Source: Minisyncoccota bacterium
GTDB taxonomy: Bacteria > Patescibacteriota > Minisyncoccia > Phycocordibacterales > UBA9973
Assembly (NCBI GenBank): GCA_041661005.1
Contig: JBAZVG010000001.1
Location: 196,917-260,916 of the forward strand
Direction: 5' to 3'
DNA: 64,000 nt
In this document: positions 9,285 to 37,743 of the stretch, in pieces
Layout: each line of letters opens with the position of its first letter
Position numbering within the stretch: the first letter of the stretch is position 1
Made by a program: the position numbers and the translations under genes
The notes under the pieces: generated by a model
Database searches by the model: none
What the model saw: the letters and a program-made list of their open reading frames with translations, nothing else
What the model was told of the DNA's origin: nothing

Positions 9285-9296
9285 AGCCGTATGAAT

Positions 9297-9370
9297 CCCG
9301 TTAGAAATTATAGGGACATGAAAAATATAAATTACAATCAAATATTACTTTTGGGTGAATTTCTAACGGG
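9297..9370. mobile_element. MITE-like element, second copy: terminal inverted repeats CCCGTTAGAAAT/ATTTCTAACGGG flanked by a 6-bp direct repeat ATGAAT
   Basis: The right-hand ATGAAT (9371-9376) is the rseP start codon; the left-hand copy is at 9291-9296. Positions 11-12 of the inverted repeat covary relative to copy 1 (GC/GC versus AT/AT). Confidence 0.55.
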
Positions 9371-16538: not shown

Positions 16539-16548
16539 ATCAAACAGT

Positions 16549-16566
16549 ATATCTCATATATGAGAT
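16549..16566. promoter_or_regulatory. Perfect 18-bp palindrome TATCTCATATATGAGATA 11 bp upstream of the HTH-MurA start codon; candidate operator
   Basis: Read from the sequence. XRE-family HTH proteins typically bind such dyads. Confidence 0.4.
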
Positions 16567-16794
16567 AATGCAAGTTTATCGATTATCTGGAGTGTGGATA
16601 ACTCGCCAGAGGCGGGCAAGGTTTTATTTTAGCCCATGCCCCAGCGCTATTGACTTTTTTGCTAATATATGATAAGAAGAATGGGAAGTTCAAACTAACT
16701 GCTTTTTTAAAACCTGCAGTCAGGGTAATAGCTAAATCCTGAATGTTTAGGTAAGTTTAAAGCAACAAACGGACAGCACTTACAATCAGTAAAT

Positions 16795-17814: not shown

Positions 17815-17998
17815 GATGATGAATATGTTATGGGGGCGAGCGGATATCCCAATCGCCCCAGAGTTAGCGAGATGTGTGTCTCGCCTGATGAGCTCAAAAG
17901 AGCGAAAACTCTTGACAAACAATTGACTTTATGCTAGCGTGAGTAAATTGATAATTAATTAATAGGTCGCAGGTAATTATAAAGTAATAAATAAATAT

Positions 17999-18922
17999 AT
18001 GAGCAAGACAATAAAGACTTTTTTGAAATATGGATTTGTGGCAATTGTCGCTATTTTTATAGCCTTTTTGTCGTCAGTCGCTTTTGCTATAGATGAGGTA
18101 AATGTTAATCCAGCAAGTGATTCGGAAAATGGTAATGAAAACGCAAATCCAGGAAGTGGTTCAGAAAGAGGTAGTGAGGTAAATGTTAATCCAGGAAATG
18201 GTTCAGAAAACGGTAATGAAGGTGGAAATGTGGATACAATCCCTGGCGATGTAACTCCTCCAGATGGTGGACCTACCGGAGATAGCTCTGGCAGTAGAAG
18301 TACTGGTAGTAGCAGAACAAGCACCCAGAATATTTCTGACATTAAAGTTACGCTTGTTGGTTCTTCTGTCTCTATAACTAATCTCGTTCGCGGAGGTACT
18401 TACACTATTTCTTGGGACGCATCAGTTCAAAACGCAGACACTTCTATTAGTTTAGTTTCTTCTTATGGTTCAAATATTTTAATCGGCACAAGCAAGAATG
18501 CAAACGGTGCTAATACTTTAAATTGGACTGTTCCCACATATCTAGCTCTCGGTACTTACACTTTACGCTTTACGGATTCTAGTAATCGAATGACCGACGC
18601 TTCGAACGTGTATAGGATAGTATCTCGAAGATCTTCTAACGCAGGCGCAGAAGCTCTAGGAACTGGTGGCGGAAATTTAATTGACACAGATGGAGAATCC
18701 TCAACTGTTTCGCCTGATGAAACAGAAGTTTTACCATCGGAAGATTCGCAAATTTCGGACGAGACTTCTCCCGTAGATCAGACAGCCGCAGTTGGAAATG
18801 CTTTTACAGATTTCTTGAGTAATAAGTATATTTTGTGGTTCTTTGTTCTTCTACTTATCATTGTTGGCGCTCTTTTTTTTCAAGAACGCAAAGATAGCGA
18901 TAAATTCCCTTTTAACAAGTAA
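17999..18922 (+). CDS. Cell-surface repeat protein (signal peptide, EVNVNP.(S/N).SENGNE repeats, Ser/Thr/Gly-rich, C-terminal TM anchor)
   Basis: N-terminal TM/signal, three imperfect ~20-aa repeats, C-terminal hydrophobic ILWFFVLLLIIVGALFF. Confidence 0.6.
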   Translation: MSKTIKTFLKYGFVAIVAIFIAFLSSVAFAIDEVNVNPASDSENGNENANPGSGSERGSEVNVNPGNGSENGNEGGNVDTIPGDVTPPDGGPTGDSSGSRSTGSSRTSTQNISDIKVTLVGSSVSITNLVRGGTYTISWDASVQNADTSISLVSSYGSNILIGTSKNANGANTLNWTVPTYLALGTYTLRFTDSSNRMTDASNVYRIVSRRSSNAGAEALGTGGGNLIDTDGESSTVSPDETEVLPSEDSQISDETSPVDQTAAVGNAFTDFLSNKYILWFFVLLLIIVGALFFQERKDSDKFPFNK

Positions 18923-21212: not shown

Positions 21213-23465
21213 CTATATCTCAATCTTCTTTATTTTGTGGGGGTTATGCATGGGGCAAGATTTATTGGAGCAACGTTCTGGGATAGTTTTGGTGCCTTCC
21301 ATCATCAGACTGCCACATTCTTTACATATCGCGCCAGTTGGTTTTGCCTTGATCGCAAACTTGCATTTGGGATAGTTTGAACAAGAATAAAAAATACCAA
21401 ATCGTCCACGACGTTCACTGATATCTCCTGTTTTACAAAGGGGACACAACACGCCAGTTCTCTTTTTTGCTTCATCTGCTTCATCGCTTTTGATAAATTT
21501 ACATTTTGGATAACGTGAGCAAGAAATAAATGTGCCAGTGCCATCGCGTCTTTCTCTGACAACAAGTTTTCCACCACCAGATTTACCTTTTTTTTCACCG
21601 CATTCTGGACATATTTCTCCGGTTTCTGCTGGACCTTTTAATTCTGTGCCGTCGAGCATAAGGGCTCCATCACAATCAGGATATTTGGAACAAGAATAAA
21701 ATTTACCTGCGCGAGAAAGTTTTATTATCATTTCGGATCCGCATTTCGGGCATTTTATGTTTGAGGGCGCTGATCCCAAGTTTGTCGCTTTTTCCAATTT
21801 TTCTTTTGATTTTACTTCCTTTAGAAAAGGTCCGTAAAAATCTCTCAGAGTTTTTTCATATTCGCGTTCTCCTCTCGATATCTCGTCAAGCTCGTCTTCC
21901 ATTTCTGCTGTAAAACTATCTGAAATATAATTCATAAAATGTTTTTCCAAAAAATCTGAAACAACTTCACCGACATCAGTGGGGAATAATGTTTTTCCTT
22001 CTTTGTTCACATAACCTCTCTCTTCAATTGTTTTCATGATGGATGCATATGTGGACGGTCTGCCTATCCCTCTAGCTTCTAATTCTTTGACCAGTCCTGC
22101 TTCGCTGTATCTGTCGGGTGGCAGGGTGAATTTTTCTTCATTTACGAGATCAAGTAGTTTCAACTCTTCTTCTGCTTTGCACACTGGTAGTTCTACATCA
22201 TCGCCTCGAGCGTCGCTATCCACCTTGAGCCATCCAGGAAAAAGCAGACGGGAACCATTGATGGAAAAATCTGGCAAGTCCTCATGTCCTTTTATAACGG
22301 CTGAAATTTTAGTTTTCAATAATTTTGCGTCAGTCATCTGCGAGGATATGGCGCGCTCCCAGATCAATCTATACAATTTGTCTTGCTCATCAGTGCCTAC
22401 AATCATATTTGTTATGTGCGTTGGACGTATGGCCTCATGCGCTTCCTGGGCGTTTTTTGATTTTGTTTTGTAAATTCTAGCTTCAGCATATTCTTTTCCA
22501 TATTTATTTTGGATAAAAGAAATTATTTGCGTTTGCGCAGCTGCAGATAAGTTTGTGCTGTCGGTTCGCATATATGTGATATGTCCAGCCTCGTAAAGTT
22601 TCTGCGCTATTTGCATGGTGCGAGAAGGTGAATACCCGAGACGTGAACTCGCTGTTTGTTGCAATGTAGAAGTGGTAAAAGGCGCGCGGGGCGAACGTTT
22701 CTGTTCAGATTCCTTTACCCCACTAACAATCCATGTGCCGGCTTTACCCTCGGTCATTATTTTTTGTACTAATTTTTCATCTCGTGGTTCTTCTGAACAT
22801 TCTAGAGTAATTTTTTCCCCTCCTGCCTGAGGAGGGGTGCCCTTTAGGGCGGGGTGGTGGGAGGTTTCAAACAGTCCGAATATTTTCCAATATTTCTCTG
22901 GAACAAAGGCGCGGATTTCACGTTCACGTTCCATTACTATGCGAAGCGCAGGGGACTGCACGCGTCCGGCAGAAAGTCCGTATCGCACTTTTTTCCAAAT
23001 AAGTCCCGAAAGGTCATAGCCCACAAGACGGTCCAAGACTCGGCGCGCCTCTTGCGCCTTTCTTAATGCTGTGTCTATCTGGCGTGGATGTTGCAGGGCT
23101 TCTTCTACGGCTTCTTTAGTAATTTCATGAAAAGTTACTCGCTCAATGGGGGCTTTTACTTTTTTATCTTCTTTTAAAAGAGTTTCTATATGCCAAGCAA
23201 TGGCTTCTCCTTCGCGATCAGGGTCGGTCGCTAAAATTATTTCTTTCGCCTTTTCCGCCAATCCTTGCAATTCGTGCACAATTTTTTCTTTACCTTTAGA
23301 AATTTCATAATGCGGAATAAAACCTCCTTCGATATCAATTGCTATTTTATTTGATTTCGGTAAATCACGAATATGTCCGACAGATGCACGCACAGTAAAA
23401 GCGCCTTCCAAATATTTTTCAATCGTCTTTGCTTTTGATGGTGACTCAACAATTAATAATTTCAT
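21213..23465 (-). CDS. topA: DNA topoisomerase I
   Basis: TOPRIM N-terminus MKLLIVESPSKAKTI, active-site region, C-terminal C4 zinc ribbons; 750 aa. Confidence 0.9.
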   Translation of the reverse strand: MKLLIVESPSKAKTIEKYLEGAFTVRASVGHIRDLPKSNKIAIDIEGGFIPHYEISKGKEKIVHELQGLAEKAKEIILATDPDREGEAIAWHIETLLKEDKKVKAPIERVTFHEITKEAVEEALQHPRQIDTALRKAQEARRVLDRLVGYDLSGLIWKKVRYGLSAGRVQSPALRIVMEREREIRAFVPEKYWKIFGLFETSHHPALKGTPPQAGGEKITLECSEEPRDEKLVQKIMTEGKAGTWIVSGVKESEQKRSPRAPFTTSTLQQTASSRLGYSPSRTMQIAQKLYEAGHITYMRTDSTNLSAAAQTQIISFIQNKYGKEYAEARIYKTKSKNAQEAHEAIRPTHITNMIVGTDEQDKLYRLIWERAISSQMTDAKLLKTKISAVIKGHEDLPDFSINGSRLLFPGWLKVDSDARGDDVELPVCKAEEELKLLDLVNEEKFTLPPDRYSEAGLVKELEARGIGRPSTYASIMKTIEERGYVNKEGKTLFPTDVGEVVSDFLEKHFMNYISDSFTAEMEDELDEISRGEREYEKTLRDFYGPFLKEVKSKEKLEKATNLGSAPSNIKCPKCGSEMIIKLSRAGKFYSCSKYPDCDGALMLDGTELKGPAETGEICPECGEKKGKSGGGKLVVRERRDGTGTFISCSRYPKCKFIKSDEADEAKKRTGVLCPLCKTGDISERRGRFGIFYSCSNYPKCKFAIKAKPTGAICKECGSLMMEGTKTIPERCSNKSCPMHNPHKIKKIEI

Positions 23466-23519: not shown

Positions 23520-24383
23520 TTAATTTAATTTTATCTCACTCATTTCTTCTTTAATAAGTCCTTTGATTTCCATAACCGTCAGTAAAGCGTTAGCGTTTGG
23601 AATTGGCATTTTCATAGTGCGAATTAAATAATCTCTTTGCATAGGCTCTCTTAATAATTTAACAACGGTTTTCTCTTCTGGCGATAAATCTTCAAAAAGT
23701 CTTTTTTGTTTTTCTTCATCTTTGGCTAATTTAAAACCAAGTGCTTCCAACACGTCTTCAGAGCAAGTGATGGGGGTCGCGCCTTGATGAAGTAGTCTGT
23801 TTGTTCCTTTTGAATTGGAAGAGAAAATTGATCCAGGCACTACCAGTAAATCTCTATTGTATTCTGTCGTGAGTCGCGCAGTGATAAGGGTGCCAGATCG
23901 CTCTTCGGCTTCTATTATTAACACAGCTTTTGAAATGCCTGCCATAAGTCTGTTGCGCATTGGAAAACTCCATTGAGTTGCTTTGAAGTCAGGTTCGAAT
24001 TCTGAAATTAAACATCCACCATTTTCAACTATTTCATTTATCAATCGCACGTTCGTTTTCGGATACATTGCTTCGTCGGAGAGTCCAGAACCCGGGAAGA
24101 CGATAGTCGTGAGTCCCGTTTGCATTGCTTTTTTGTGTGCGATTGTGTCTATGCCTATGGCAAAACCGGAGACTATCACTATGGGATAGCCTTTTAGACC
24201 CGCAATTATTTTCTCACAAGCTTCGCGTCCATAGGTAGTAAACTTGCGCGAGCCTACCACGCATAAGTAAATTAAATTTTCGTCAGTAGGTAAGTCGCCT
24301 ATGATCCAAAGGTCTTCTGGGGGTTGGGGAATTTCTAGAAGTGCTTTTGGGAATTTATTTTTTGGTAGTTTTCTGATTTGCAT
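23520..24383 (-). CDS. dprA: DNA processing protein DprA (Smf)
   Basis: Rossmann-like DprA core GSRKFTTYG ... VVSGFAIGID..AHKKAM ... ERSGTLITA. Confidence 0.85.
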   Translation of the reverse strand: MQIRKLPKNKFPKALLEIPQPPEDLWIIGDLPTDENLIYLCVVGSRKFTTYGREACEKIIAGLKGYPIVIVSGFAIGIDTIAHKKAMQTGLTTIVFPGSGLSDEAMYPKTNVRLINEIVENGGCLISEFEPDFKATQWSFPMRNRLMAGISKAVLIIEAEERSGTLITARLTTEYNRDLLVVPGSIFSSNSKGTNRLLHQGATPITCSEDVLEALGFKLAKDEEKQKRLFEDLSPEEKTVVKLLREPMQRDYLIRTMKMPIPNANALLTVMEIKGLIKEEMSEIKLN

Positions 24384-24523
24384 GTTACGCGAGAAATATC
24401 TTTTAAAAACCGCACATAATTTTCTGCTGAAAATTTGTTATGCTCGGCGCGCCCGCCTGCGCAATGCTTTTTAAAAGTTATTTCTCGCTTCACATTATAG
24501 CAAGTTTGATATACAATATGAAT

Positions 24524-26837: not shown

Positions 26838-27959
26838 ATGCAAAATTTTTGGAAAAAATTAAAAAAGCCCGCCTTGCCTGACGGAAGTCGAGGCAGGCCA
26901 TTTTTCTGCCTTGCGCCGATGTCAGATGTCACTGATATCGCTTTTCGTCACATGTTGGCAAAATATGGCAAAAATAGGGAAAATAAAGATAGAGTTGTTT
27001 TTTGGACAGAGTTTGTGTCTGCTGATGGTTTGTGCAATAAATTTGCCAGACAAAAGTTGGCACACATGCTGGTCTTCTCGGAATCTGAAAGGCCAATTGT
27101 GGCGCAAATTTTTGGCGCTAATCCGGAAAATATGAAGAAAGCTTGCCAATATGTCGCAAATCTTGGCTTTGATGGGATAGATATAAATATGGGTTGCCCA
27201 GATAAATCAGTCGTGAGTCAGGGGGCTGGCGCAGGGTTGATTAAAAATCCAGAACTTGCGCGACAGATTATCAAAGCAGTTCATGCGGGTATAAAATCAG
27301 CTGGACGAGACATACCTGTGTCAGTGAAAACTAGAATTGGTTTTAATAAAGAAGAAATTGATCGCTGGATACCAGAATTATTAAAAGAAGATATTTCTGC
27401 TTTGACGATTCACTTGCGCACAGCCAAAGAGCTTTCACTCGTTCCAGCCAATTGGGAACATATCAAAAAAATAAAGAAACTTATAGAAAAAAGTGGGAAA
27501 AATATTTTGCTGATAGGCAACGGTGATGTGAAAGATTTAAAAGATGCAGAAGAAAAAGCCTCGAAATATGGCTGTGATGGGGTGATGATAGGTCGCGGAG
27601 TTTTTGGCAATCCGTGGTTTTTTGATTCCACTAGAAAAATGGAAAACGGTAGTGAATTTTATGTCCCCGAGGGTCCCGCTTTGTGTCCCTTAATGCGCCC
27701 AAAGAAGGGCGCAGGGGCAGAAAATTCACTACCGTTTTCCATTATACGAGAAAAACTTCAAGTCCTCATAGAGCATACGCAAATTTTTGATAAAGAACTT
27801 GCGATACCTAAACATAAAAATTTTGATGTAATGAAAAAACATTTCAAGGCTTATGTGAATGGTTTTGATGGCGCCAAAGAACTTCGAATAAAATTAATGG
27901 AAACTGAAAATTCGAAACAAGTTGAAAAGATAATAAATGATTTTTTGGAAACAAACTGA
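26838..27959 (+). CDS. dus: tRNA-dihydrouridine synthase
   Basis: FMN-binding TIM barrel motifs LAPMSDVTD.AFR and GFDGIDINMGCP. Carries an in-frame ~106-nt inverted-repeat insertion (27638-27743). Confidence 0.85.
   Translation: MQNFWKKLKKPALPDGSRGRPFFCLAPMSDVTDIAFRHMLAKYGKNRENKDRVVFWTEFVSADGLCNKFARQKLAHMLVFSESERPIVAQIFGANPENMKKACQYVANLGFDGIDINMGCPDKSVVSQGAGAGLIKNPELARQIIKAVHAGIKSAGRDIPVSVKTRIGFNKEEIDRWIPELLKEDISALTIHLRTAKELSLVPANWEHIKKIKKLIEKSGKNILLIGNGDVKDLKDAEEKASKYGCDGVMIGRGVFGNPWFFDSTRKMENGSEFYVPEGPALCPLMRPKKGAGAENSLPFSIIREKLQVLIEHTQIFDKELAIPKHKNFDVMKKHFKAYVNGFDGAKELRIKLMETENSKQVEKIINDFLETN
27638..27743 (+). repeat. In-frame ~106-bp palindromic element inside dus: 23-bp perfect terminal inverted repeats AATGGAAAACGGTAGTGAATTTT / AAAATTCACTACCGTTTTCCATT
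   Basis: Read from the sequence. Its GC-rich palindromic core GCGCCCAAAGAAGGGCGC is translated in frame as ..MENGSEFYVPEGPALCPLMRPKKGAGAENSLPFSI.. Confidence 0.7.
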
Positions 27960-28065: not shown

Positions 28066-28581
28066 ATGAAGAATATGATCCTTAACAATGCGGTATTGCA
28101 GAGTTTTGGTAAAACGGACAAGCGGTGGTGGATGAAGGTATTAAACCTAAGCTTGGTAACTCAAGAATATGCCACAAAACTTCCCAAATCGGTGAAATTT
28201 CCCACTTTTGAATGTCACACGATATGTAGGGCAATCGCCAAGCATATTCATGGATTAAAGGTAGTTGATGGTTACTATGTGGGAGTAGCTCAACAACACA
28301 GAAATGGCAAAGTCGTAGCGCAATTACAATATTGTGAGCATTCGTGGTTGGTCACACCGAGTGGTTCCATTATTGATCCATATCCGGTTGGATGTCTGGC
28401 AACCAATCCAATTCTGGTGGTGAACCGAGGTAAATACAAAAACTTCGGGGGAGACCTTTATTGGCCGGACAGATTCATCACCAAGAAAGTATGCACTCAA
28501 AGACTGCGCGAAAAAGTGAAAATTCTATCGCGTATTGCCAAAGAGGCTGAGAAACACGCTCGACGCTCCGAGCATAGTTAG
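28066..28581 (+). CDS. Hypothetical protein (171 aa, Cys/His-containing)
   Basis: ORF only. Confidence 0.45.
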   Translation: MKNMILNNAVLQSFGKTDKRWWMKVLNLSLVTQEYATKLPKSVKFPTFECHTICRAIAKHIHGLKVVDGYYVGVAQQHRNGKVVAQLQYCEHSWLVTPSGSIIDPYPVGCLATNPILVVNRGKYKNFGGDLYWPDRFITKKVCTQRLREKVKILSRIAKEAEKHARRSEHS

Positions 28582-28663: not shown

Positions 28664-29722
28664 ATGCACGACTTGGCATTATATCGCAAATATCGGCCGA
28701 AAAACTTCAAGGAAGTCTTGGGGCAAGATCATATCGTAAAAGTGCTGGAAAGCTCTGTAGAAGCCAACAAGGTTTCCCACGCATACCTTTTTGTAGGTTC
28801 GCGTGGCACAGGCAAAACTTCCGTCGCCAGAATTTTTGCAAATGAAATCGGTGTATCAGCCAATGACTTATATGAGATAGACGCCGCCAGCAATAGGGGA
28901 ATCGAAGATATAAAAGAATTGCGTGATGGCGCGCGAGTATTGCCTTTTGATTCAAAATACAAAGTTTATATAATCGACGAAGTGCATATGCTCTCCAAAG
29001 ACGCTTGGGGTGCGTTATTGAAGACCCTAGAAGAACCTCCAAAACATGTTATTTTTATTCTAGCTACCACTGAGTTTCATAAAGTGCCTGAGACTATTAT
29101 CTCACGCTGTCAGGTTTTCACTTTCAAAAAAGCATCAGACGTAGTTTGTAAAAAAATGCTGACTGATGTTGGGAAGAAAGAAGGTTTCGATTTGGATGCC
29201 GGCTCGGCCGAGCTTTTAGCTGTATTATCTGATGGATCGTTCAGGGATGGATTGGGAGAGTTGCAAAAAGTTTTGAATTTCAGTGGAAGTAAGAAAACCC
29301 GCCTAGACTCGGCGAGGCTGGTCAATAGAGAAGATGTTGAAAAAATAACCGGCGCGCCAAAGGCGACTTTGGTAAATGATTTTATTTCAGCAATTGCAGA
29401 AAAAAATATTGAAAAAGGAATATCTGTCGTGCGATCTGCGGCTGAAGAAAATTTAGATATGGAATTATATTTGAAACTCATTATCGCAAAATTCCGTATG
29501 GCGATAATTTTGCGATACGCGCCAAAATTAAAAGGAGAGATGATAGGGGATTTATCTGAAGCTGATTTAGAATTTCTGCAGATTTTAATAAAAGAAAGTG
29601 GGGAGATGTTTAATTCTTCTACTCTAGCGACACTTTTAGAAGCTTATCAGAATATAGATAATGCGTTTATTACCGAGTTACCACTGGAGCTTGCGTTAGT
29701 GAAGATTTTAAGCAAAGAGTAA
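28664..29722 (+). CDS. dnaX: DNA polymerase III gamma/tau subunit (short form)
   Basis: YRKYRP..F.EV.GQ.H ... HAYLF.G.RGTGKTS.ARI.A ... AWGALLKTLEEPP. Carries an in-frame 24-nt repeat copy. Confidence 0.85.
   Translation: MHDLALYRKYRPKNFKEVLGQDHIVKVLESSVEANKVSHAYLFVGSRGTGKTSVARIFANEIGVSANDLYEIDAASNRGIEDIKELRDGARVLPFDSKYKVYIIDEVHMLSKDAWGALLKTLEEPPKHVIFILATTEFHKVPETIISRCQVFTFKKASDVVCKKMLTDVGKKEGFDLDAGSAELLAVLSDGSFRDGLGELQKVLNFSGSKKTRLDSARLVNREDVEKITGAPKATLVNDFISAIAEKNIEKGISVVRSAAEENLDMELYLKLIIAKFRMAIILRYAPKLKGEMIGDLSEADLEFLQILIKESGEMFNSSTLATLLEAYQNIDNAFITELPLELALVKILSKE
29298..29321 (+). repeat. 24-nt short form of the 45-nt element inside dnaX (translated TRLDSARL)
   Basis: CCCGCCTAGACTCGGCGAGGCTGG, identical to the short copy in alr. 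Confidence 0.7.
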
Positions 29723-30695: not shown

Positions 30696-30766
30696 TGGGG
30701 GATCGTCTAATGGTAGGACACATCCCTTTGAAGGATGTTATTTTGGTTCGAGTCCAAGTCCCCCAG
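30696..30766 (+). tRNA. tRNA-Gln (anticodon UUG)
   Basis: Acceptor TGGGGGA/TCCCCCA, anticodon stem-loop CATCC-CUUUGAA-GGATG, T-loop TTCGAGT. GC content jumps immediately at its 3' end. Confidence 0.8.
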
Positions 30767-32446
30767 CACGTTTGGACTCACAGAGGCGGATGCCTCATTT
30801 GGCCCTTTCGACAGGCCAGTATTTTCAGGTTCGATTGGCTTGTTTTCGGTTTCTGTATCCGACATGGACTTTTCGAGGATGAAGAACGGTTCGCGGGCTT
30901 CAATGCTCAGCTTTTTGGCCTTCAAAGTTAGGTTCGATCCGAATGTCACCAGCATCTCCTCTTTGGTCTTCGCATCGCCGTTCGCGAACCGCTCCCGAGC
31001 GGTCGAGGCAAATTCAAACGTGTCTTCGGACAGTTTTAACTGCTGCTCAATCCGCTTCCCGGCATCCTGAAGCAACTCCTCCAAAGCGGACTTTTCTTTG
31101 AGTAGCTTCACCCTCCTCTGACCGTATTCCTCATCCGATAGCTGGCTTCCGTCTGCGTTGCTGGACGAGGTTTTCAGACCCACCAGATTGTCGATTTCCT
31201 GCAAGCACGCTCGATATGCCTTCTGCTGGGCTTCGATGATGGCGCTTTGCTCCATGCTCTCCTTCGCGTGCAATTCATGGAGGAATTTGATGCAGTAGGC
31301 TTTGAATTTCTCGGAAATATGGATGCGGCCAAGATATTCACGAATCTGCCTTTCGAGATCAAATGCACTCACACTCTTCTGCGGACAAGATGGACGTTTG
31401 CTTTTTGAACAATGGTAATAGGTGTAGTGAAGGAAGAGCGGGTTCGTCATTTCTTCGATCGATGTCTGGCAGCGCGGGCAGGCGTTTCGCTTGCGGTAGG
31501 CAAACTTGAACCGGCATTGGCCACACATGACCTGGTGCTTTTCCTCAGCGGTCACCATCCGGTCACACTCGCCACAACGGATGAGGCCGGTGAAAGCAAA
31601 TTCAAAGTGCGATTGAGGCCGCGGACTGCCGTTGCGGCCAAGCAAAGTCTGCACCCGGTCATATTCCGCTTCGGTGATCATCGGCTCGTGCTTTCCCTGA
31701 TACCACTTGTTGCTGCCGTTTGGATATTCAAACCAGCCGTAATAGAAGGGCTTGGTGAAGATCTGGTAGATGGCGCTTCGGCAAAGAGGCTTGCCACCCA
31801 TCTTGCGCGTTGGCCTCGTGCGGAAGGCCCACTCTTTGTTGGCGATTTCCAGAATTCTCGGCGGGGTGTAGAGGCCGGTCAGCATCAAATCCCACATGCG
31901 ACGGAGCAGAGGAAAACGCTCCGGATCTTTGACCAGAGTGTTTTCGCCCGTCAGCTTGTCGGTGTGGTTCAAGTAGCCTGCCGGGGCGACGCCGGGATAC
32001 CAGCCGTTTTCGGTCTTGGTCTTGAGTCCCCGTTTTACGTTTTTGCTCAGGTCGTCCACGTATTTCTGCGCCATGCCGAATTCGATATACATGAGGATGA
32101 TATTGTCATCTTCACGGGCGTAAGTCTGGGCCGGGGTCATGATCCTGATGCCATGCTGTTTGATGCCCCAGATGATGGAACCTCCGTCCACCGGATTACG
32201 CGCCAGACGATCAAGTTTCCAGCAGATGACGCCGGCAGCTTCACCACGGTAAAGGCGTTGCATCATCTGATTGAACACCGGGCGCCCCGGATCTTTTGCG
32301 GATTTCGACTCGGTCAATACTTCGACAACTTGTAAATTTAACTTGGCCGCCAACTGCTCCAATTCGCGGGTTTGGGATTCAATGGAAAGAATCTGCCGGT
32401 CTTCGGCTTCGGATGATTTGCGACAATAGATGAAGTATCCTGACAT
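30707..32446 (-). CDS. Large serine recombinase (integrase of a tRNA-Gln-associated island)
   Basis: N-terminal resolvase catalytic domain IYCRKSSEAEDRQ..SIESQ ... LDRLARN, a recombinase domain, a zinc ribbon CGECDR...CGQC...CPRC, and a coiled coil. Its 3' end overlaps the tRNA-Gln 3' half on the opposite strand. Confidence 0.8.
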   Translation of the reverse strand: MSGYFIYCRKSSEAEDRQILSIESQTRELEQLAAKLNLQVVEVLTESKSAKDPGRPVFNQMMQRLYRGEAAGVICWKLDRLARNPVDGGSIIWGIKQHGIRIMTPAQTYAREDDNIILMYIEFGMAQKYVDDLSKNVKRGLKTKTENGWYPGVAPAGYLNHTDKLTGENTLVKDPERFPLLRRMWDLMLTGLYTPPRILEIANKEWAFRTRPTRKMGGKPLCRSAIYQIFTKPFYYGWFEYPNGSNKWYQGKHEPMITEAEYDRVQTLLGRNGSPRPQSHFEFAFTGLIRCGECDRMVTAEEKHQVMCGQCRFKFAYRKRNACPRCQTSIEEMTNPLFLHYTYYHCSKSKRPSCPQKSVSAFDLERQIREYLGRIHISEKFKAYCIKFLHELHAKESMEQSAIIEAQQKAYRACLQEIDNLVGLKTSSSNADGSQLSDEEYGQRRVKLLKEKSALEELLQDAGKRIEQQLKLSEDTFEFASTARERFANGDAKTKEEMLVTFGSNLTLKAKKLSIEAREPFFILEKSMSDTETENKPIEPENTGLSKGPNEASASVSPNVLGDLDSNQNNILQRDVSYH

Positions 32447-32532
32447 GGAAATGGGTGATTAAAATAAGGGAGGCGGGCGACCTTGGAGCCTGCATCCCTA
32501 TGCTAACGTACCGGCAAAATACGTCAATGAGG

Positions 32533-32796
32533 TCACTGGCTAAGACGGTTCTCGTCGGGCTCCTTGTCTGAACCCGGCTGCTTCAGAATCCCGAAGAAGC
32601 GAAGTAGACGCACAGCGATTTCTTGGATCTCGTCGTCGCTAAGACGCTTACCGAACTCCTCTTGGTAAATGGCTCTGAACTCCTCGATAGCTTCACGACT
32701 TAGTTGTTGTGGTGTTTTCATATCGTCCACTTTACTTGCTGTTACTCTTCGGCAAAGGACGGAAGAATTGCCACATACGGCATGTCCGCATTGCAC
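32533..32796 (-). CDS. Small helical hypothetical protein upstream of the recombinase (possible directionality or regulatory factor)
   Basis: ORF only; the likely true start is an internal Met (MKTPQQLSREAIEEF...). Confidence 0.3.
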   Translation of the reverse strand: MQCGHAVCGNSSVLCRRVTASKVDDMKTPQQLSREAIEEFRAIYQEEFGKRLSDDEIQEIAVRLLRFFGILKQPGSDKEPDENRLSQ

Positions 32797-33024
32797 TTGG
32801 AACTAGAATTCGGGGCACCTCCCTTGACGAATAGCGAGTTTCGTGCTTAAATACGAAAACCTTCCACCGAGTTCAAGAAGCTCGGTGTTTAATAGGTTTG
32901 CCATTTCTGGCAAAGGTTCCCGCCTTTGGTATTTTTACCATTGAGATATGGTGGTGTCGTGGAACTCGCATTGGGTTCCTCCGCTTCCACACTGATGACT
33001 TCACTTCAACTTCCAAACTATTTG

Positions 33025-33366
33025 CTATCTAATCGAAAACGCCTGACTCTTTCTCAAGAAGAGGTCGCATTTCTGTTGGGAGCGGGAAGGCGGCGTATTG
33101 TCCACCTTGGTCGTCGCGGCGAGCGTGACCCGCGAGAGGCGGTTGCCGGCATCGTCGTAGGCGTATGACTCAGCCGAACCGTCGGAATATGCGGCGTTGG
33201 TGAGGCGGGACAGGGGGTCGTGGGAATGCTCGAAAGTGGCGCCATTTACTTGCGATATCGCAAGGATAATGCAACCGCAGGCCAAAACGTAAACAGCGGT
33301 AAACATAATACACCTCATACTAGTTATTGTTAAATACGTTAAATACGATTCGGATAACCAACCCAA
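33025..33366 (-). pseudogene. Fragment: signal peptide plus a single YD/RHS repeat (YAYDDAGNRL), likely a remnant of an RHS-family protein
   Basis: Hydrophobic N-terminus MFTAVYVLACGCIILAISQVNGA, then a YxYDxxGRL-type repeat, then an unrelated tail. Confidence 0.4.
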
Positions 33367-33471
33367 TCATTGTAATCGAAATAACTAACCACATAGGTGG
33401 AAGAAGCGGCCCATCATGACCGAAAAATAAACCACGTAAAAACGAAATTATCTGCTGGATTGTTTGCTTTT

Positions 33472-34962
33472 TCATGGAAGCTGAAAGAGATTTATATAAG
33501 CGTTCACACCCTGTTGAATTTGATCGCCTCGCAGTTGGAAAAGATTTAACGTATAGGTGTTCAAAAAAACAGCGCTATACGAAGTCAAAGCATCATCAAC
33601 AGACTGCCACGCCTCAAGCGGATTATGTAGTGCATACGTCAGGTTCTCGTCAATGTGCATAATACTTTCACCCAGAGTGCTGAAATCGACGCCCCGAGCA
33701 CGCAATTCGGCCTGACTTGATTGGAAAACGCCGTAAACAGTGGAGGCCCTTGCAGTTAATCTGAGCGTGCGACCGATACCATGAAGGTCGATAACGTTTC
33801 CCGGTGATAATCGCAGTTGTCCAATCGTAACTCGACCGTATCCCGTATCCACATACAGTTCGAGCCGCGAACCAATTTCGCGCAACAGCCATTCAATCGA
33901 TTCTCTTGGCAAATCGCCAAAATTTAATTGACCGAATATATTGCCTGAGGTTGTTCCTCCTTCCTGCGCCGACAAGCCACTTACATCAAGCCATTTCAAA
34001 GGATTGTTCAGCGCATACACATAGCGATTCAAACTCTGCCCGTCGCTGTCCTTCCCAGTAACTGGGTCTTTAGTGGCAAATCGGCCCAGTTGCGGGCTGA
34101 AATAGCGAGCGCGGGCATGATAAAGACCATTACCGTCATCCATGATACCATACCGCCCCAGATAACGGAAGGGCTGCGGAGAATCCCCCTCGGAATTCGC
34201 CACGACGCCAAACGAATCAAACGCGTAGGCGTCGGTTTCGTCTCCGTTGGTGTTGAATGAATCATTCCCACCGATGGACTGAACTTGATGCGAATACAGT
34301 TTGTTAATCAGACGTTCGCGTTCCATGAACTGCTCTGGTTGCAGAAATGGACGATCCCAGCGTAAGTAGTGTTTGAAATAAATACATCTGAGAATGGTTC
34401 GCATCTCTGACGCACTAACGAGTACACGCTGATCTGGTAAGAGCACCATTAAGTCTGCTGGATAACTTGTCTGTCCATCGTAAGTTTGAAGAACTGGATA
34501 ATGGTAAGCAAAATCCACGGTGCGAAATCCGAGTCGCTTGAAATACCCGATCAGTTTGTCGTCGGGCTCCCATTGTTGGGAACTATTCCGCCTCCGTGCT
34601 ACCTCAAACACAATGGAAAAACCAGGTGGGTAGTTCTGTGCGAGAAACTGTTCTATACTCCTAATAGCACGACTTGGCAAAAGGCCAGGCCGTTTGGAGT
34701 CGCGAATGCATAGATACTCAAAGAAGAAAAGTTGTTCCTCTATGAAAAAGCTGTACTGCAAATATCCCACAACGGTGTGGTCATTTTGAAGTGCAAAGCA
34801 TTTGAACTCATCGGCGAGAACTTCTTTGCTGTGCTCGATCCAATAGAGAATCTGGCGCTCTGGATTCTGAGCTTCCGGCAGTATGGTTTCCCGGTAGATA
34901 CTCAAAGCTGCATACAAGCGATTCTTCCCGCGATTTGTCCGGTCGATTGGCTTAAGAAACAT
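33472..34962 (-). CDS. Chimeric protein: N-terminal GNAT-like fold, RHS repeat-associated core domain, C-terminal ~170-aa variable (toxin-like) domain
   Basis: The core reads PFRYLGRYGIMDDGNGLYHARARYFSPQLGRFATKDPVTGKDSDGQSLNRYVYALNNPLKWLDVSGL, which matches the RHS core consensus (..Y.ARYYDP..GRF.S.DP ... N.Y.Y..NNP....DPSGL). The N-terminus FSIVFEVARRR..KLIGYFKRLGF is GNAT-like. Confidence 0.55.
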   Translation of the reverse strand: MFLKPIDRTNRGKNRLYAALSIYRETILPEAQNPERQILYWIEHSKEVLADEFKCFALQNDHTVVGYLQYSFFIEEQLFFFEYLCIRDSKRPGLLPSRAIRSIEQFLAQNYPPGFSIVFEVARRRNSSQQWEPDDKLIGYFKRLGFRTVDFAYHYPVLQTYDGQTSYPADLMVLLPDQRVLVSASEMRTILRCIYFKHYLRWDRPFLQPEQFMERERLINKLYSHQVQSIGGNDSFNTNGDETDAYAFDSFGVVANSEGDSPQPFRYLGRYGIMDDGNGLYHARARYFSPQLGRFATKDPVTGKDSDGQSLNRYVYALNNPLKWLDVSGLSAQEGGTTSGNIFGQLNFGDLPRESIEWLLREIGSRLELYVDTGYGRVTIGQLRLSPGNVIDLHGIGRTLRLTARASTVYGVFQSSQAELRARGVDFSTLGESIMHIDENLTYALHNPLEAWQSVDDALTSYSAVFLNTYTLNLFQLRGDQIQQGVNAYINLFQLP

Positions 34963-35287
34963 AGATAATTGTTAATTATCCGTGATGTGGGCGAGATGTC
35001 TTGTTCGGAAATGTGTGTTTCGTATCCGACATTGCGGTAGTCAGTGCAGGAGACCAAGGAAGATGTTGCTAGTCTGCTGGATTCCTCTCTCTTGGTTCTT
35101 CGCAAGACAGTGTTCTGTCACAAAAGTGATCGAATTACAGTGGGCTTTTGTTTTCGGAGCGAGGCTTTGATAACGGATTTCTGGTGCATACACATACCAC
35201 AGCCTAATGTTTTTGAATTACTGGTCTATGAGTTATGATTGTCCTCCTGCGAGATTTATAGAGAAATAGTTTGCTGGATGAGGGCGT

Positions 35288-35761
35288 ATGTTGAGGTATA
35301 TGCATATTTGGTGCTATAATGAGAACATGTGGGTTATTTATGCATTTATAGCTGCATTGTTGTGGGGTCTTGATTATGCACTTACAGAAAAAGTACTAAA
35401 CAGGATTACATTCTCGACATTGCTCAGTATTGAGTTGTTTTTCGGTCTGCTTGGTATGCTCTTGTTGGGGCTTTTACGGGGGACGTATTGGAAAGACTGG
35501 TCAGTGATTCTCTCTTCCCAAAAGATAATATGGCACGTTGTTATAATTGTGCTTGTGTTCAACATCGCCAACACTTTTATCGTTCTTTCCATTGGAAACA
35601 AGAACGCCACCCTTGCGGGCTTAATTGAGATTTCTTACCCCTTGTTTATTGCCGTTTTTTCGTGGTTCTTGTTCAAGGAGAGCCATGTTAACCTATGGAC
35701 AGGAATTGGTGCGGTATTGGTGTTTAGCGGGATTGGGTTGATCTACTACGTCAACAAATGA
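35288..35761 (+). CDS. EamA/DMT-family transporter half (4-5 TM), hypothetical
   Basis: Hydrophobic protein with an EamA-like WGLDYALTEK region; 157 aa, likely a fragment. Confidence 0.4.
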   Translation: MLRYMHIWCYNENMWVIYAFIAALLWGLDYALTEKVLNRITFSTLLSIELFFGLLGMLLLGLLRGTYWKDWSVILSSQKIIWHVVIIVLVFNIANTFIVLSIGNKNATLAGLIEISYPLFIAVFSWFLFKESHVNLWTGIGAVLVFSGIGLIYYVNK

Positions 35762-35862
35762 AGAGGAAAAGGGACGCTCATCCTTGCCGGCGTCGGCAAA
35801 TAAGAAAAAGGGCGACCCGATTGGATCGCCCTTGTGATTAGTAGTCTTCCGGCACCCAAGCG

Positions 35863-36240
35863 GTGAGTTTGTTTGAGCAGGCAATTTTGGTCGCTCAAGC
35901 ATTACATGATTTGCGATATGAAGGATTCTGGATGGGTAGTCTTGGTGTCCTTTATATGGAAGAAAAGCACTACAAGGACGCGGAAGCTTTCTTGCAACGC
36001 GCTTTGGCAATCGCTATTCAAATAGGTGACCAACGTTACGAAGGAACGCATTTGAGTTGGCTTGGGGATTTATACACCACGACGGGCCAATTTCAGAAAG
36101 CTCGTGAATGCCTTGAAAGGGCCGTGAAATTGGCAGAGGATCTGCAGATTGAATCATGGATTCAGCAGCGCAAAGCGAAAATTGAGAAATTGGAACGTTT
36201 GGAGAAGGAGGCGGGTGACCACGCTCGTCCTCAAATCTGA
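35863..36240 (+). CDS. TPR-repeat protein fragment
   Basis: Three TPR-like helical repeats (..AE.FLQRALAIA...GDQRYEG..L..LGDLY...GQFQKA.E.LERA..LA). Confidence 0.4.
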   Translation: MSLFEQAILVAQALHDLRYEGFWMGSLGVLYMEEKHYKDAEAFLQRALAIAIQIGDQRYEGTHLSWLGDLYTTTGQFQKARECLERAVKLAEDLQIESWIQQRKAKIEKLERLEKEAGDHARPQI

Positions 36241-36855
36241 TTGGACCTTATTGGACAAAGCTCGAACTCTTTTCGATGAACATCGAAGTGATACGCAGAA
36301 AACGATGCCGATGAACCGACCGGATGATTTCACCGTCGCGCTCGGTGATTTGGATGGGGGCAACCGCAGATGCGCGTTTGAAACGGGGAAGACGATGGGA
36401 TTCCATCCATCCACGGTAACGAAGATCAAGCTCCTAATGTAGGAGGCGGGGTTTGCGCACTGCGCCAAGTCACATAATCTCGGTGATGTTTCAGTATAAT
36501 CATTGGAAGCAAATTGTCACTATTACATTAACACTCTGCAATCCTAGCTTGACGGACAATAGGCACTTACTTACGGATAAACGATAAAAGCCCCTTCGGG
36601 GTGTTGGATGATGAATAATGGATGTTCAAACGCGCCAATATCGTAGCACAAAAAAAACTCCGAATACATACAATGACGTATTCGGAGTCACGCTTTGATA
36701 CAACCAACAGATGCGTGATTCTTGTTGGGCGACCCTTTGGTCCGCTCAAGGCTCGGGTAGATCCAAGAGAAGCCGAGTTAAGACGAGGTTATCCCAGGGA
36801 ACTCGGACTGCTGGGACACACATTATAGCACAGGTAAGTGGCAATGTGTCATCAT

Positions 36856-37581: not shown

Positions 37582-37743
37582 GGCTGGAGAGAAGTCACGC
37601 GAGTTGTGACTGACGACAGAAACACGCCTTTGAAATGGGCGTAGATGAGTGCGGCTGCCCGTTCTGCTTTGTGACCATAGGCTCGAACATCGTCCAGTCC
37701 TCTCAGCATTTTAAATGAGAGTGATTACTTGCAATTATCCTTG

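What the first reader, a model, noticed from the sequence alone, without database searches (positions are those of the whole stretch)
27638..27743. ~106-bp element with 23-bp perfect terminal inverted repeats inserted in frame in the tRNA-dihydrouridine synthase gene
Inside dus, between conserved blocks (..GRGVFGNPWFF | ... | REKLQVL..), sit AATGGAAAACGGTAGTGAATTTT ... AAAATTCACTACCGTTTTCCATT. They flank a GC-rich palindromic core (GTCCCCGAGGGTCCCG, GCGCCCAAAGAAGGGCGC), and the whole element is translated as ~35 extra residues. This is a third family of in-frame palindromic insertions, and a larger one. It should extrude as a cruciform or fold into a long RNA hairpin.
Basis: seen in the sequence. 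Interest (0 to 1): 0.7.

Follow-up and report, generated by a model that had tools for sequence, protein, structure and literature searches.

The report
In-frame palindromic element inside dus
A roughly 100-base hairpin-forming piece of selfish-looking DNA sits in frame in the tRNA-dihydrouridine synthase gene of a Paceibacteria (CPR) bacterium; relatives of it occur in frame in other housekeeping genes of related bacteria, much like the palindromic elements of Rickettsia.

Summary
Window 27638-27660 and 27721-27743 are a perfect 23-nt inverted repeat around a GC-rich core, inside an intact Dus gene. It is the strongest hairpin in the 64 kb (-64 kcal/mol, z = -9).

Close Dus orthologs have a 9-13 aa linker here; this gene has 43 aa. 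The extra roughly 31 residues are predicted to be disordered, between the TIM barrel and the helical domain.

The insert belongs to a DNA family found in many Paceibacteria/Nomurabacteria MAGs. Copies sit stop-free and in frame in Dus, UvrC, and genes that look like LigA, Tgt, RecG and LeuRS, in four orientation/frame combinations.

Two core boxes (GAGGGTCCC, GAAGGGCGCAG) never vary. The arms differ between loci but stay complementary (176 compensated cells against 45 expected). So the 23-bp "TIRs" are locus-specific; the outer half is probably an inverted copy of adjacent host codons.

The Dus linker is a hot spot: at least 10 unrelated palindrome families occupy it in different orthologs, and the nearest relatives have it empty or filled differently.

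Best reading: an RPE-like in-frame palindromic mobile element, new for this phylum. How it moves is unknown. Evidence for target-site duplication is mixed.

The parts
26838..27959 (+). Host gene: tRNA-dihydrouridine synthase (Dus), 373 aa, intact ORF
   Evidence: PF01207, E = 2.6e-61; PDB Dus hits. The protein is 100% identical to P0001, a Candidatus Paceibacterota MAG protein from a contig of 813,355 bp.
27638..27743 (.). Whole palindrome as reported: 23-nt perfect arms plus a 60-nt interior
   Evidence: Covariance model R1 scores 105.7 bits, E = 2.8e-22, over 27631-27751.
27638..27660 (+). Left arm, AATGGAAAACGGTAGTGAATTTT. The outer 12 nt (27638-27649) are inferred to be an inverted copy of host codons at 27732-27743. 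The inner GAATTTT (27654-27660) is the family-conserved inverted repeat.
   Evidence: 9/9 inverted match of the flanks; comparison with ortholog linkers.
27665..27717 (+). GC-rich core, CCCC..GGGG. It contains the invariant boxes GAGGGTCCC (27669-27677) and GAAGGGCGCAG (27704-27714) and the inner hairpin GCGCCC/GGGCGC (27695-27712).
   Evidence: The boxes are exact in 8/8 copies that were found through the host protein rather than through the core sequence.
27721..27743 (+). Right arm, AAAATTCACTACCGTTTTCCATT. The outer CCGTTTTCCATT (27732-27743) encodes P-F-S-I and resembles the native linker end (..ISIEE / ..SVSIQD) of orthologs.
27639..27731 (+). Inferred net inserted DNA: 93 bp, 31 codons, residues M268-L298. 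What remains is DSTRK + PFSIIRE = 12 aa, the baseline linker length.
   Evidence: Inference. AlphaFold2 gives pLDDT < 50 only for residues 268-273 and 275-294.

Best explanation
The segment is a copy of a small, non-coding, palindromic mobile or insertion element. It belongs to a family dispersed in Paceibacteria (Patescibacteria/CPR), and it has landed in the flexible linker between the TIM-barrel and helical domains of Dus.

It survives there because the inserted length is a multiple of three, it has no stop codon in the reading frame used, and the site tolerates about 31 extra disordered residues. In this it resembles the Rickettsia palindromic elements (RPEs).

What is shown:
- It is an insertion relative to orthologs.
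- It is read through.
- The same DNA family sits in frame in at least 8 different housekeeping genes, in 4 orientation/frame combinations.
- The core is invariant at the nucleotide level regardless of frame.
- The arms differ between loci but stay complementary.
- The Dus linker (and a UvrC linker) is a hot spot occupied by many unrelated palindrome families, with fast turnover.

What is inferred:
- The unit that actually moves is the core plus inverted repeats of about 10-16 nt (roughly 55-85 bp).
- Insertion makes a direct duplication of about 9 bp. Replication template switching (quasi-palindrome correction) often rewrites this into an inverted repeat. This lengthens the stem into host sequence and keeps the arms complementary without selection.
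- Cores can later be deleted, leaving 'solo arms'.

The enzyme or process that moves the core is unknown.
For: Insertion.
- Of 119 close orthologs, 57 have linkers of 14 aa or less and 57 have linkers of 17 aa or more.
- All 78 of the 80 metagenomic Dus loci that are complete across the linker keep one open frame through it (L109 stops at a contig end, L116 is a partial match). Empty linkers fold at 0 to -6 kcal/mol; most filled ones fold at -17 to -64 kcal/mol, the weakest at -12.
- The nearest relative by 600 nt of flanking sequence, L046 (83.7%), has an empty linker. The next, L045, carries a different family. L002's nearest, L059 (90.5%), also carries a different family.

Family.
- The core pattern hits 40 loci in one-genome-per-species GTDB contigs. 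Twenty-five are low-GC CPR MAGs, and some genomes have 2 hits.
- Twenty-three of those 25 CPR loci lie inside long ORFs, without stops, read as ..PEGP..KGAG....PRGS..GEGRRG....LRPS..DPRGQK.. or ..APAPF..GPSGTK...
- Dus carries the element in both orientations at the same linker.

Structure.
- There are 34 pairs, 94.5% of cells paired against 76.8% in shuffles and 42-57% in slid controls, and 176 doubly changed cells against 45 expected.
- Window against L001: the core differs at 2/53 positions, while 11/21 arm pairs are changed on both sides and none is broken.
- The core boxes are exact in 8/8 copies found independently of the core.

Protein. AlphaFold2 gives pTM 0.84, with only residues 268-294 at low confidence and coiled.

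Boundaries and turnover.
- Perfect 9-bp direct repeats sit 15-17 nt outside the core in L002 and L034, and 8/9 in L049. Perfect 9-bp inverted repeats sit at the same place in the window copy and in L007, L013, L018, L027 and L043.
- UvrC pair: in filled L043 one arm is the native KSEGSS codons, also present in empty L125, and the other arm is its inverted copy.
- Dus pair L126/L127: they differ by exactly 54 bp of core, and both arms are present in the 'empty' allele.

No Rfam family matches, and no promoter- or terminator-like site lies in the element.
Against: - Only one copy of this family lies in the 64-kb window, so the copy number in the source genome is unknown and seems low.
- No transposase or parent IS was identified. 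The variable termini with an invariant interior are the reverse of a classical MITE.
- Direct-repeat (TSD) evidence is significant only in a minority of copies. Overall, direct similarity is not above cross-copy controls (p = 0.11; 12% against 5.5%).
- The direction of the filled/empty differences (insertion or deletion) was not resolved by phylogeny.
- The perfect conservation of the core is not explained by neutral decay of selfish DNA. It could mean a host function.
- Translation of the insert is inferred from frame conservation, not from proteomics.
Confidence: 0.72

Rival explanations
1. The element moves through single-stranded DNA. One specific strand folds into the bulged hairpin, and the invariant asymmetric core (unpaired G/A bases, one invariant T.G) is the recognition structure for a strand-specific enzyme. 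That enzyme would be of the HUH/Y1 type, as for IS200/IS605 and REP/RAYT elements, or an integron-integrase type acting on a folded site, as for attC. This is a rival only for how the element moves; it is compatible with the in-frame selfish-DNA reading.
For: - Non-Watson-Crick transition pairs in the arms are G.T on the element's CCCCGAGGG strand 37 times and A.C 7 times. The bias follows the element's orientation, not the host mRNA strand (sense strand: 13 G.U against 31 A.C). In the inner arm it is 28 against 2, p = 9e-7.
- The core is an imperfect stem with conserved bulges and an invariant T.G pair.
- The arm sequence is free as long as pairing is kept.
- The core boxes are conserved irrespective of reading frame.
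Against: - No HUH, Y1 or integrase gene was linked to the element. The serine recombinase at 30707-32446 belongs to a separate island next to tRNA-Gln.
- IS200/IS605 and attC recombination make no 9-bp direct duplication, yet L002, L034 and L049 have one.
- The G.T bias is not significant in the outer arms (10 against 6), and copies at orthologous sites are not independent.
- Element orientation shows no clear bias independent of gene orientation.
Confidence: 0.15
2. No dedicated enzyme is involved. The hairpins arise and spread by replication template switching or microhomology-mediated break-induced copying. A stalled nascent strand copies a palindromic core from another locus, folds back on itself (producing an inverted duplication of the flank), and returns to its original template.
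For: - Flanks just outside the conserved unit are copy-specific inverted repeats in 45% of copies, against 5.8% in cross-copy controls (p < 0.0005).
- In L043 one arm is native host codons and the other is its inverted copy.
- At least 10 unrelated palindrome families pile up in the same two linkers. A process driven by structure and tolerance, not by sequence-specific targeting, would produce this.
- Quasi-palindrome correction by template switching is an established mutational mechanism (my own knowledge: Ripley 1982; work of the Lovett laboratory).
Against: - It does not explain perfect 9-bp direct repeats at a fixed distance from the core in three copies.
- It does not explain why the same 20 nt of core stay invariant across species.
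- Long-range copying of a 55-85-nt unit between unlinked loci by template switching is not documented in bacteria, to my knowledge.
Confidence: 0.15
3. The hairpin is kept by the host for a function in the dus transcript or gene. Candidates are a ribosome pause between two protein domains, an RNase III site controlling Dus level, or a binding site for a host protein.
For: - The stem is very stable (-64 kcal/mol).
- The arms are kept complementary by double changes.
- The core is invariant.
- Insertion sites lie at domain boundaries in Dus and UvrC.
Against: - About half of close Dus orthologs have no insert, and the nearest relatives have empty linkers or unrelated families. Dus therefore does not need it.
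- The same element occurs in both orientations at the same site, so in many genes the sense mRNA carries the strand with A.C mismatches.
- It sits in unrelated genes with no shared regulation.
Confidence: 0.08
4. The segment is not translated. It is removed from the mRNA (intron-like) or skipped by the ribosome, like the mitochondrial byp elements of Magnusiomyces.
For: It has a GC-rich structured core in an AT-rich genome, superficially like mobile mitochondrial GC clusters and byps (my own knowledge).
Against: - Every copy inside a gene keeps the frame and lacks stops in the frame used: all 78 metagenomic Dus loci that are complete across the linker, 119 of 120 Dus proteins parsed, and 23 long-ORF loci in other genes or genomes. 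An excised or bypassed element would be out of frame two times in three.
- Reading frame +2 is open in only 3 of 28 copies and was not the longest open frame spanning the core in any of them.
- No intron or ribozyme family matches.
Confidence: 0.02

Closest known systems
Rickettsia palindromic elements (RPE-1 to RPE-8/10; Ogata et al. 2000 Science 290:347; Ogata et al. 2002 Genome Res; summarised in PMC10969869)
   Same: - Palindromic repeats of about 100-150 bp with no coding capacity of their own, in a small AT-rich genome.
- Inserted in frame into unrelated housekeeping genes.
- Translated as extra peptide segments at positions compatible with the fold.
- Several families per genome.
- Mechanism of movement unknown.
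   Different: - Different phylum (Patescibacteria/CPR).
- No sequence relationship to RPEs was tested here.
- The interior core is invariant and the arms are locus-specific, whereas RPE families are defined by whole-length consensus sequences.
- The same family is read in four frame/orientation combinations, whereas RPEs are described as encoding a conserved peptide.
- Many families pile up at the same linker of the same gene.
Bacterial MITEs (Correia/CREE, ERIC, RUP, Nezha and others; review PMC10969869)
   Same: Small, non-autonomous, inverted repeats, can be co-transcribed, sometimes intragenic. A duplication of about 9 bp is visible in some copies.
   Different: - The terminal sequences are not conserved and the interior is, which is the reverse of a MITE.
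- No parent IS was found.
- Apparent copy number is low.
- Most copies sampled are intragenic.
REP/BIME elements with RAYT (Y1 HUH) transposases; IS200/IS605-derived palindromic elements (PMC3733652, listed)
   Same: Recognition is plausibly of a folded, imperfect hairpin on one strand. Stem sequence is free if pairing is kept.
   Different: - REPs are 20-40 bp, extragenic and high-copy, and carry a GTAG or CGTC tag.
- This element is about 100 bp, intragenic and low-copy. GTAG occurs in the window's arm only by locus-specific sequence.
- No RAYT gene was seen.
Mobile GC clusters and double-hairpin elements of fungal mitochondria; byp elements (my own knowledge: Weiller 1989; Paquin, Laforest and Lang 2000; Lang et al. 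2014)
   Same: GC-rich palindromic units in AT-rich compact genomes. They invade coding regions, and their mobility mechanism is unresolved.
   Different: These are organellar. Byps are bypassed by the ribosome and are not constrained to be in frame, whereas here the frame is always kept.
Coding palindromes in Nematomorpha mitochondrial genes (PMC6649704)
   Same: Long, near-perfect inverted repeats inside translated protein-coding genes. Protein function and hairpin are kept together.
   Different: There, both arms encode conserved protein regions and no dispersed mobile core exists. Here the palindrome is an add-on in a disordered linker and carries a dispersed conserved core.

Membership tests
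RPE-like in-frame palindromic repeats (a functional class, not a sequence family) | Absent from orthologs of the host gene (a true insertion) | tested here: met
   The baseline linker is 9-13 aa in orthologs against 43 aa here. The nearest relative, L046, has an empty linker.
RPE-like in-frame palindromic repeats (a functional class, not a sequence family) | Palindromic, predicted to form a stable hairpin | tested here: met
   23/23 perfect arms; -63.9 kcal/mol, z = -9.2. Across 28 copies, 94.5% of cells are paired.
RPE-like in-frame palindromic repeats (a functional class, not a sequence family) | Repeated: related copies at unrelated loci, many inside ORFs and in frame | tested here: met
   Copies lie in Dus, UvrC and genes that look like LigA, Tgt, RecG, LeuRS and NifS across CPR MAGs. 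Twenty-three of 25 CPR pattern-hit loci lie in long ORFs. Within this window there is only one copy.
RPE-like in-frame palindromic repeats (a functional class, not a sequence family) | Located at a surface or permissive position of the host protein | tested here: met
   In the AlphaFold2 model, residues 268-294 have pLDDT < 50 and are coil, between the last barrel strand and the first helix of the C-terminal domain. This is a prediction only.
RPE sequence families of Rickettsia (RPE-1..) | Sequence similarity to an RPE consensus | not tested
   No RPE consensus was available in the tools. The host phylum and the GC-rich core make homology unlikely.
MITE | Conserved terminal inverted repeats shared by all copies and by a parent IS | tested here: not met
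   Termini differ between copies. Only the inner roughly 10-12 nt and the core are shared. No parent IS was identified.
MITE | Target-site duplication of fixed length | tested here: inconclusive
   Direct repeats of 9/9 in L002 and L034 and 8/9 in L049, at a fixed distance from the core. Most copies, including the window copy, have inverted repeats there instead.
REP / RAYT system | 20-40 bp extragenic palindromes with a GTAG or CGTC tag, high copy number, associated RAYT gene | tested here: not met
   The element is about 100 bp, intragenic, with one copy per 64 kb and no tag conserved across copies. The presence of a RAYT gene was not searched genome-wide.
Self-splicing intron / ribozyme / any Rfam family | Match to a curated covariance model | tested here: not met
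   No match at gathering scores. At E <= 10 there are only chance hits far below threshold, for example MIR2646 at 24.9 bits against a cut-off of 245.
Translational bypass (byp-like) or excised intervening sequence | No constraint on frame or stop codons within the element | tested here: not met
   The frame is kept and stop-free in every gene-borne copy examined.
Integron attC site | Imperfect palindrome with R''/L''-L'/R' boxes (RYYYAAC..GTTRRRY), located at cassette boundaries next to an integron integrase | tested here: not met
   The outer stems read AAAC/GTTT in many copies, but they are locus-specific host sequence. Copies lie inside housekeeping ORFs, not at cassette boundaries. The resemblance is limited to a bulged hairpin with a strand bias.

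The most novel reading that the evidence does not exclude
The mobile unit is only the 55-85-nt bulged GC-rich core. An as yet unknown strand-specific enzyme, or an enzyme-free replication process, recognises it as a folded single strand.

The core hops into coding linkers of essential genes and then recruits the flanking host codons into its own stem by template switching. Cores are later lost, leaving solo arms.

This gain, extension and loss cycle would be a major generator of linker length and sequence diversity in the proteomes of Paceibacteria. It would be a form of mobile DNA whose ends are rewritten at every locus.
Probability: 0.25. Interest if true: 0.8.

Novelty: new variant of a known kind. 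Interest (0 to 1): 0.62.

Why it matters
In-frame palindromic repeats have been treated as a peculiarity of Rickettsia. Here the same phenomenon appears in an unrelated, ultra-small-genome phylum, and at high density. About half of close Dus orthologs and most of the 120 best-scoring UvrC orthologs carry some palindrome in one particular linker, drawn from many families.

This has several consequences:
- A large share of the length variation among CPR housekeeping proteins may be selfish DNA, not adaptation.
- Such inserts will distort alignments, phylogenies and structure predictions for these organisms.
- CPR metagenomes offer thousands of natural filled and empty sites for working out how palindromic elements move. 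That question is still open for RPEs, for mitochondrial GC clusters and for many MITE-like repeats.
- An invariant asymmetric core combined with freely covarying, partly host-derived arms is a concrete handle for finding the responsible enzyme or process.

Tried and rejected
- **Other copies in the window.** The exact arm, the core halves with 2 mismatches, and covariance model R1 with filters off all find only this one copy. The other hairpins that R1 touches (24373-24503, 9281-9387, 4814-4910) score 22 bits or less and are unrelated palindromes, although 4820-4903 shares the 10-mer CGGTAGTGAA.
- **Rfam.** Nothing at gathering scores or at E <= 10.
- **Promoter and terminator scan.** Nothing in the element.
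- **Viral contigs.** The one hit is a chance match in a 52%-GC contig.
- **ACNAGAAAAA as a TSD of the window copy.** Rejected, because removing 117 bp would leave a linker of about 4 aa.
- **A single ancient insertion in Dus.** Rejected, because carriers are not each other's nearest relatives and the element occurs in both orientations and three frames at that site.
- **Core conservation as an artefact of searching with the core.** Rejected, using 8 copies found through the host protein instead.
- **Recombination tract around the L126/L127 linker.** Local identity (0.88-0.92 over few bases) is not clearly above other parts of the gene, so no claim is made.
- **Orientation relative to local GC skew.** This is confounded with gene orientation and with non-independent orthologous copies, so no claim is made.
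- **Open in all six frames.** Not so: about 2.8 of 6 frames are open per copy.
- **Literature.** Six full-text searches found no description of such elements in Patescibacteria/CPR. The library is open-access only.
Full report
**1. The observation**

The sequence is as described. AATGGAAAACGGTAGTGAATTTT lies at 27638-27660 and its exact reverse complement at 27721-27743. There are no other matches in the window even with 3 mismatches, and none in shuffled sequence.

The region folds at -63.9 kcal/mol, against -29.3 +/- 3.8 for shuffles (z = -9.2), and about equally well on the other strand. In a scan of all 110-nt windows (mean -19.7, sd 7.3) it is the strongest hairpin in the 64 kb.

It lies in an uninterrupted 373-aa ORF (26838-27959, +) that is a tRNA-dihydrouridine synthase: Pfam PF01207 at E = 2.6e-61, with PDB Dus relatives. 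The protein is identical to one annotated from a Candidatus Paceibacterota MAG on an 813-kb contig. The window is therefore CPR/Patescibacteria DNA, about 37% GC.

**2. It is an insertion in a permissive linker**

Among the 120 best Dus homologs (70-80% identity), the stretch between ..GNPWFF and (E)KLxVLxEH is 14 aa or less in 57 proteins and 17 aa or more in 57.

Eighty Dus loci were fetched from metagenomes. All 78 that are complete across the linker have one open frame through it; L109 stops at a contig end and L116 is a partial match. Short linkers (9-13 aa) fold at 0 to -6 kcal/mol, and most long ones fold at -17 to -64 kcal/mol, the weakest at -12.

The window's linker is 43 aa. Removing 27639-27731 (31 codons) leaves DSTRK+PFSIIRE. 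That is 12 aa, the baseline length, and it has the usual ..S-I-x-E ending.

An AlphaFold2 model built on 55 sequences is confident overall (pLDDT 83.7, pTM 0.84). The exception is residues 268-273 and 275-294, which form a coil between the end of the barrel and the first helix of the C-terminal domain.

**3. It belongs to a dispersed DNA family**

Three Dus orthologs with a similar peptide (L001, L002/L003) share the GC-rich core at the DNA level but have different arms.

A scan of one genome per species (GTDB) with CCCCGAGGGTCCC-N15-45-GGCGCAGGG gave 40 loci. Twenty-five are low-GC Paceibacteria, Nomurabacteria or other CPR MAGs, and some genomes have two hits. The rest are chance matches in GC-rich genomes.

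In every CPR hit the core is flanked by ..AATTTT.. and ..AAAATT.., and then by 12-25 nt that pair with each other but differ between loci.

Twenty-three of the 25 CPR pattern-hit loci lie inside long ORFs without stops. UvrC was later confirmed as a host by homology search. The other hosts were identified only from conserved motifs: LigA-like, Tgt-like, RecG-like, LeuRS-like and NifS-like genes, and one other gene.

The same DNA is read in four ways: forward as ..EF..PEGP..KGAG.EN.. or ..ILNPRGS..GEGRRGEKF.., and reverse as ..NFSPLRPS..DPRGQKI.. or ..KFSAPAPF..GPSGTKN...

So three peptide 'families' that I first separated among Dus orthologs are one DNA family in different orientations and frames at the same linker.

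Model R1, built from 28 copies, finds only the one copy in the window (105.7 bits). In the related loci it finds extra diverged or sister copies, for example a second copy in one UvrC gene and a sister family in the UvrA zinc-finger region.

**4. Invariant core, covarying arms**

On the 28-copy alignment, 34 pairs are predicted:
- 94.5% of cells pair, against 76.8% in shuffles and 42-57% when partners are slid.
- 176 cells have changes on both sides, against 45 expected.
- 0 of 500 shuffles reach any of the measures.

Between the window and L001 the core differs at 2 of 53 positions. In the same comparison, 11 of 21 arm pairs are changed on both sides and none is broken.

Because the core was my search pattern, I re-checked with 8 copies found through the host protein only. 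GAGGGTCCC and GAAGGGCGCAG are exact in all 8, although the host genes differ by 16-25%.

Conservation is independent of reading frame and orientation. It therefore acts on the nucleic acid, or the copies are young.

Transition-type mispairs in the arms are G.T on the CCCCGAGGG strand 37 times and A.C 7 times. They follow the element's orientation, not the mRNA strand. The bias is confined to the inner arm (28 against 2), and the outer arm shows 10 against 6. This hints that one strand of the element is the folded, relevant form, but copies at orthologous sites are not independent.

**5. What the '23-bp TIRs' are**

Only the inner part (GTGAATTTT / AAAATTCAC) matches the family. The outer AATGGAAAACGG / CCGTTTTCCATT is unique to this locus.

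I compared 9-nt windows placed 15-18 nt outside the core:

| Flank pattern | Copies | At least 7/9 within copies | At least 7/9 across copies |
|---|---|---|---|
| Perfect inverted repeats (9/9) | window, L007, L013, L018, L027, L043 | 45% | 5.8% |
| Perfect direct repeats (9/9) | L002 (AACGAAGTT), L034 (GTGAAACTC); L049 is 8/9 | 12% | 5.5% |

Overall direct similarity is not significant (p = 0.11).

Two filled/empty pairs are informative.

- **UvrC.** Empty L125 reads ..AAA AGT GAG GGC TCT TCC | GCT GCT TTT... Filled L043 reads ..AAA AGC GAA GGT TCT TCC [core.. GAA AGA ACC TTC] GCT TTT... One arm is the native K-S-E-G-S-S codons, and the other is a new inverted copy of them.
- **Dus.** L126 and L127 (about 80% identical) differ by exactly 54 bp of core, and both arms are present in the 'empty' allele.

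In the window, the right outer arm CCG TTT TCC ATT resembles the native end of the linker in orthologs (..TCC GTT TCT ATT.. in L049), and the left outer arm is its inverted copy.

My reading, which is inference, runs as follows:
- The unit that moves is the core plus 10-16-nt inverted repeats.
- Insertion gives a direct duplication of about 9 bp.
- Template switching at the quasi-palindrome often rewrites one copy into the complement of the other. This extends the stem into host sequence and keeps the arms complementary.
- Cores can be deleted again.

The alternative reading, that cores insert at the tip of pre-existing quasi-palindromes, is not excluded.

**6. Hot spot and turnover**

At least ten unrelated palindromic families occupy the same Dus linker in different orthologs. 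Examples:
- the TGTCAAAG..CTTTGACA family
- GC-rich 'PLL.KERG / SPPYQGGE' hairpins
- several others
- two different elements in tandem in L054

By 600 nt of flanking sequence, the window's nearest relatives are L046 (83.7%, empty), L045 (another family) and L048 (empty). L001, which has nearly the same core, is only 81.1% identical. L002's nearest relative (90.5%) carries a different family.

A UvrC linker behaves the same way. The baseline is 10-16 aa, and most of the 120 best-scoring orthologs carry inserts of 17-52 aa from many families. P0199 and P0161 carry this family at two different UvrC sites, reciprocally.

The simplest explanation is that palindromes insert widely and only those in permissive linkers, with a length that is a multiple of three and no stop codon, survive. 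Targeting is not excluded.

**7. Comparison with known systems**

The closest known kind is the Rickettsia palindromic elements, which are in-frame, translated palindromic repeats in housekeeping genes of a reduced genome.

The differences are these:
- a different phylum
- an invariant bulged core with locus-specific arms
- use of four frame/orientation combinations
- stacking of many families at one site

It fails the MITE definition on conserved termini and on a parent IS, and its TSD status is unresolved. It is not a REP, by size, location and copy number. It matches no Rfam family. It is not an excised or bypassed element, because the frame is always kept.

Mitochondrial GC clusters, double-hairpin elements and the Nematomorpha coding palindromes are analogues, not relatives.

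Six literature searches found no report of such elements in Patescibacteria. The library is limited to open-access papers.

**8. Verdict**

What is there is an RPE-like in-frame palindromic element of a family new to CPR bacteria.

Two features are not explained by simple selfish-DNA decay: the invariant asymmetric core, and the arms rewritten at each locus.

Still open:
- the mechanism of movement
- the copy number in the source genome
- the direction of the filled/empty differences
- whether the insert is expressed as protein

Noticed in passing
window 3728-3785 (ORF 3402-4142, +): A different GC-rich palindrome, CACCCCTTCGCCCCTCTCCTTGACAAGGAGAGGGGTTGGGGGAG (-40.5 kcal/mol), lies in frame and is read as ..SPLSLTRRGVGGEV... 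The same kind of hairpin occupies the Dus linker in other orthologs (L113, L073).
   Followed up: partly
window 13011-13029, 14063-14081, 54886-54904 (and diverged 6255-6320): Three exact copies of GCGAGCTCGGCGAGGCTGG, each part of a GC-rich hairpin of about 45 nt (CCTAGACCCGCTTCGATGCGAAGCGAGCTCGGCGAGGCTGG). All lie inside long ORFs on either strand and are read without stops. This is a multi-copy in-frame family in this genome.
   Followed up: partly
window 61035-61090 (ORF 59976-61280) and 22812-22868 (ORF 21213-23465, -): Two more in-frame GC-rich hairpins (..CCATCCTCCTTGAGGAGGGGGGAGGGGGTGGTG.. and ..CCCCTCCTGCCTGAGGAGGGGTGCCCTTTAGGGCGGGGTGGTGGGAGG..) lie inside long ORFs.
   Followed up: no
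window 4820-4903, 9290-9377, 24382-24495, 5925-6045: Long palindromes with 20-31-nt arms lie in or at the edges of intergenic spacers. The one at 4820-4903 shares the 10-mer CGGTAGTGAA with the Dus arm (9 matches with at most 1 mismatch in the window against 2 expected), but it is not the same family by covariance model (19 bits or less).
   Followed up: partly
window 30696-37600: A large serine recombinase (30707-32446, -; Resolvase + Recombinase + Zn_ribbon_recom) abuts tRNA-Gln (30696-30767). It is followed by about 7 kb at 44-49% GC, against about 36% elsewhere. This is probably an integrated mobile element or prophage remnant.
   Followed up: partly
window 38640-39647 (-): A C-5 cytosine DNA methylase (PF00145, E = 4e-97) lies just beyond the GC-rich island. 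No partner restriction gene was looked for.
   Followed up: no
window 15003-16538 (-) and 16000-18000: A 510-aa protein fuses an N-terminal HTH_3 domain to an EPSP-synthase-fold (MurA/AroA-like) domain. The next 2 kb are GC-rich (47%) and hold ORFs (16795-17814, 17999-18922) with no Pfam match.
   Followed up: no
window 28066-28581 (+): A 171-aa ORF with no Pfam match sits between dus and the next gene (28664-29722). In L002 and L003 the DNA polymerase III delta'-like gene follows dus directly.
   Followed up: no
L054 (Dus linker), L076 (Dus), L011 2300-2408 and 1855-1960 (UvrC): Multiple hits occur in one gene: two different palindromic elements in tandem in the Dus linker of L054, a second insert further downstream in the Dus of L076 (..LMDTNPIRTDGRKRPTSNGAKNF..), and two copies of the present family at two sites of one UvrC gene in L011.
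   Followed up: partly
L011 4886-4992, L028 1661-1767, L032 4790-4898, L004 539-647 and 1801-1911, L053 Dus linker: A sister family has the same architecture (variable arms, GAATTT inner repeat, GTGGGTCCC .. hairpin .. GAGGGT core). It lies in frame in the UvrA zinc-finger region (..KKNFSGLTLPGVPGGTHT..), in a LeuRS-like gene and in a Dus linker. This suggests a wider superfamily.
   Followed up: partly
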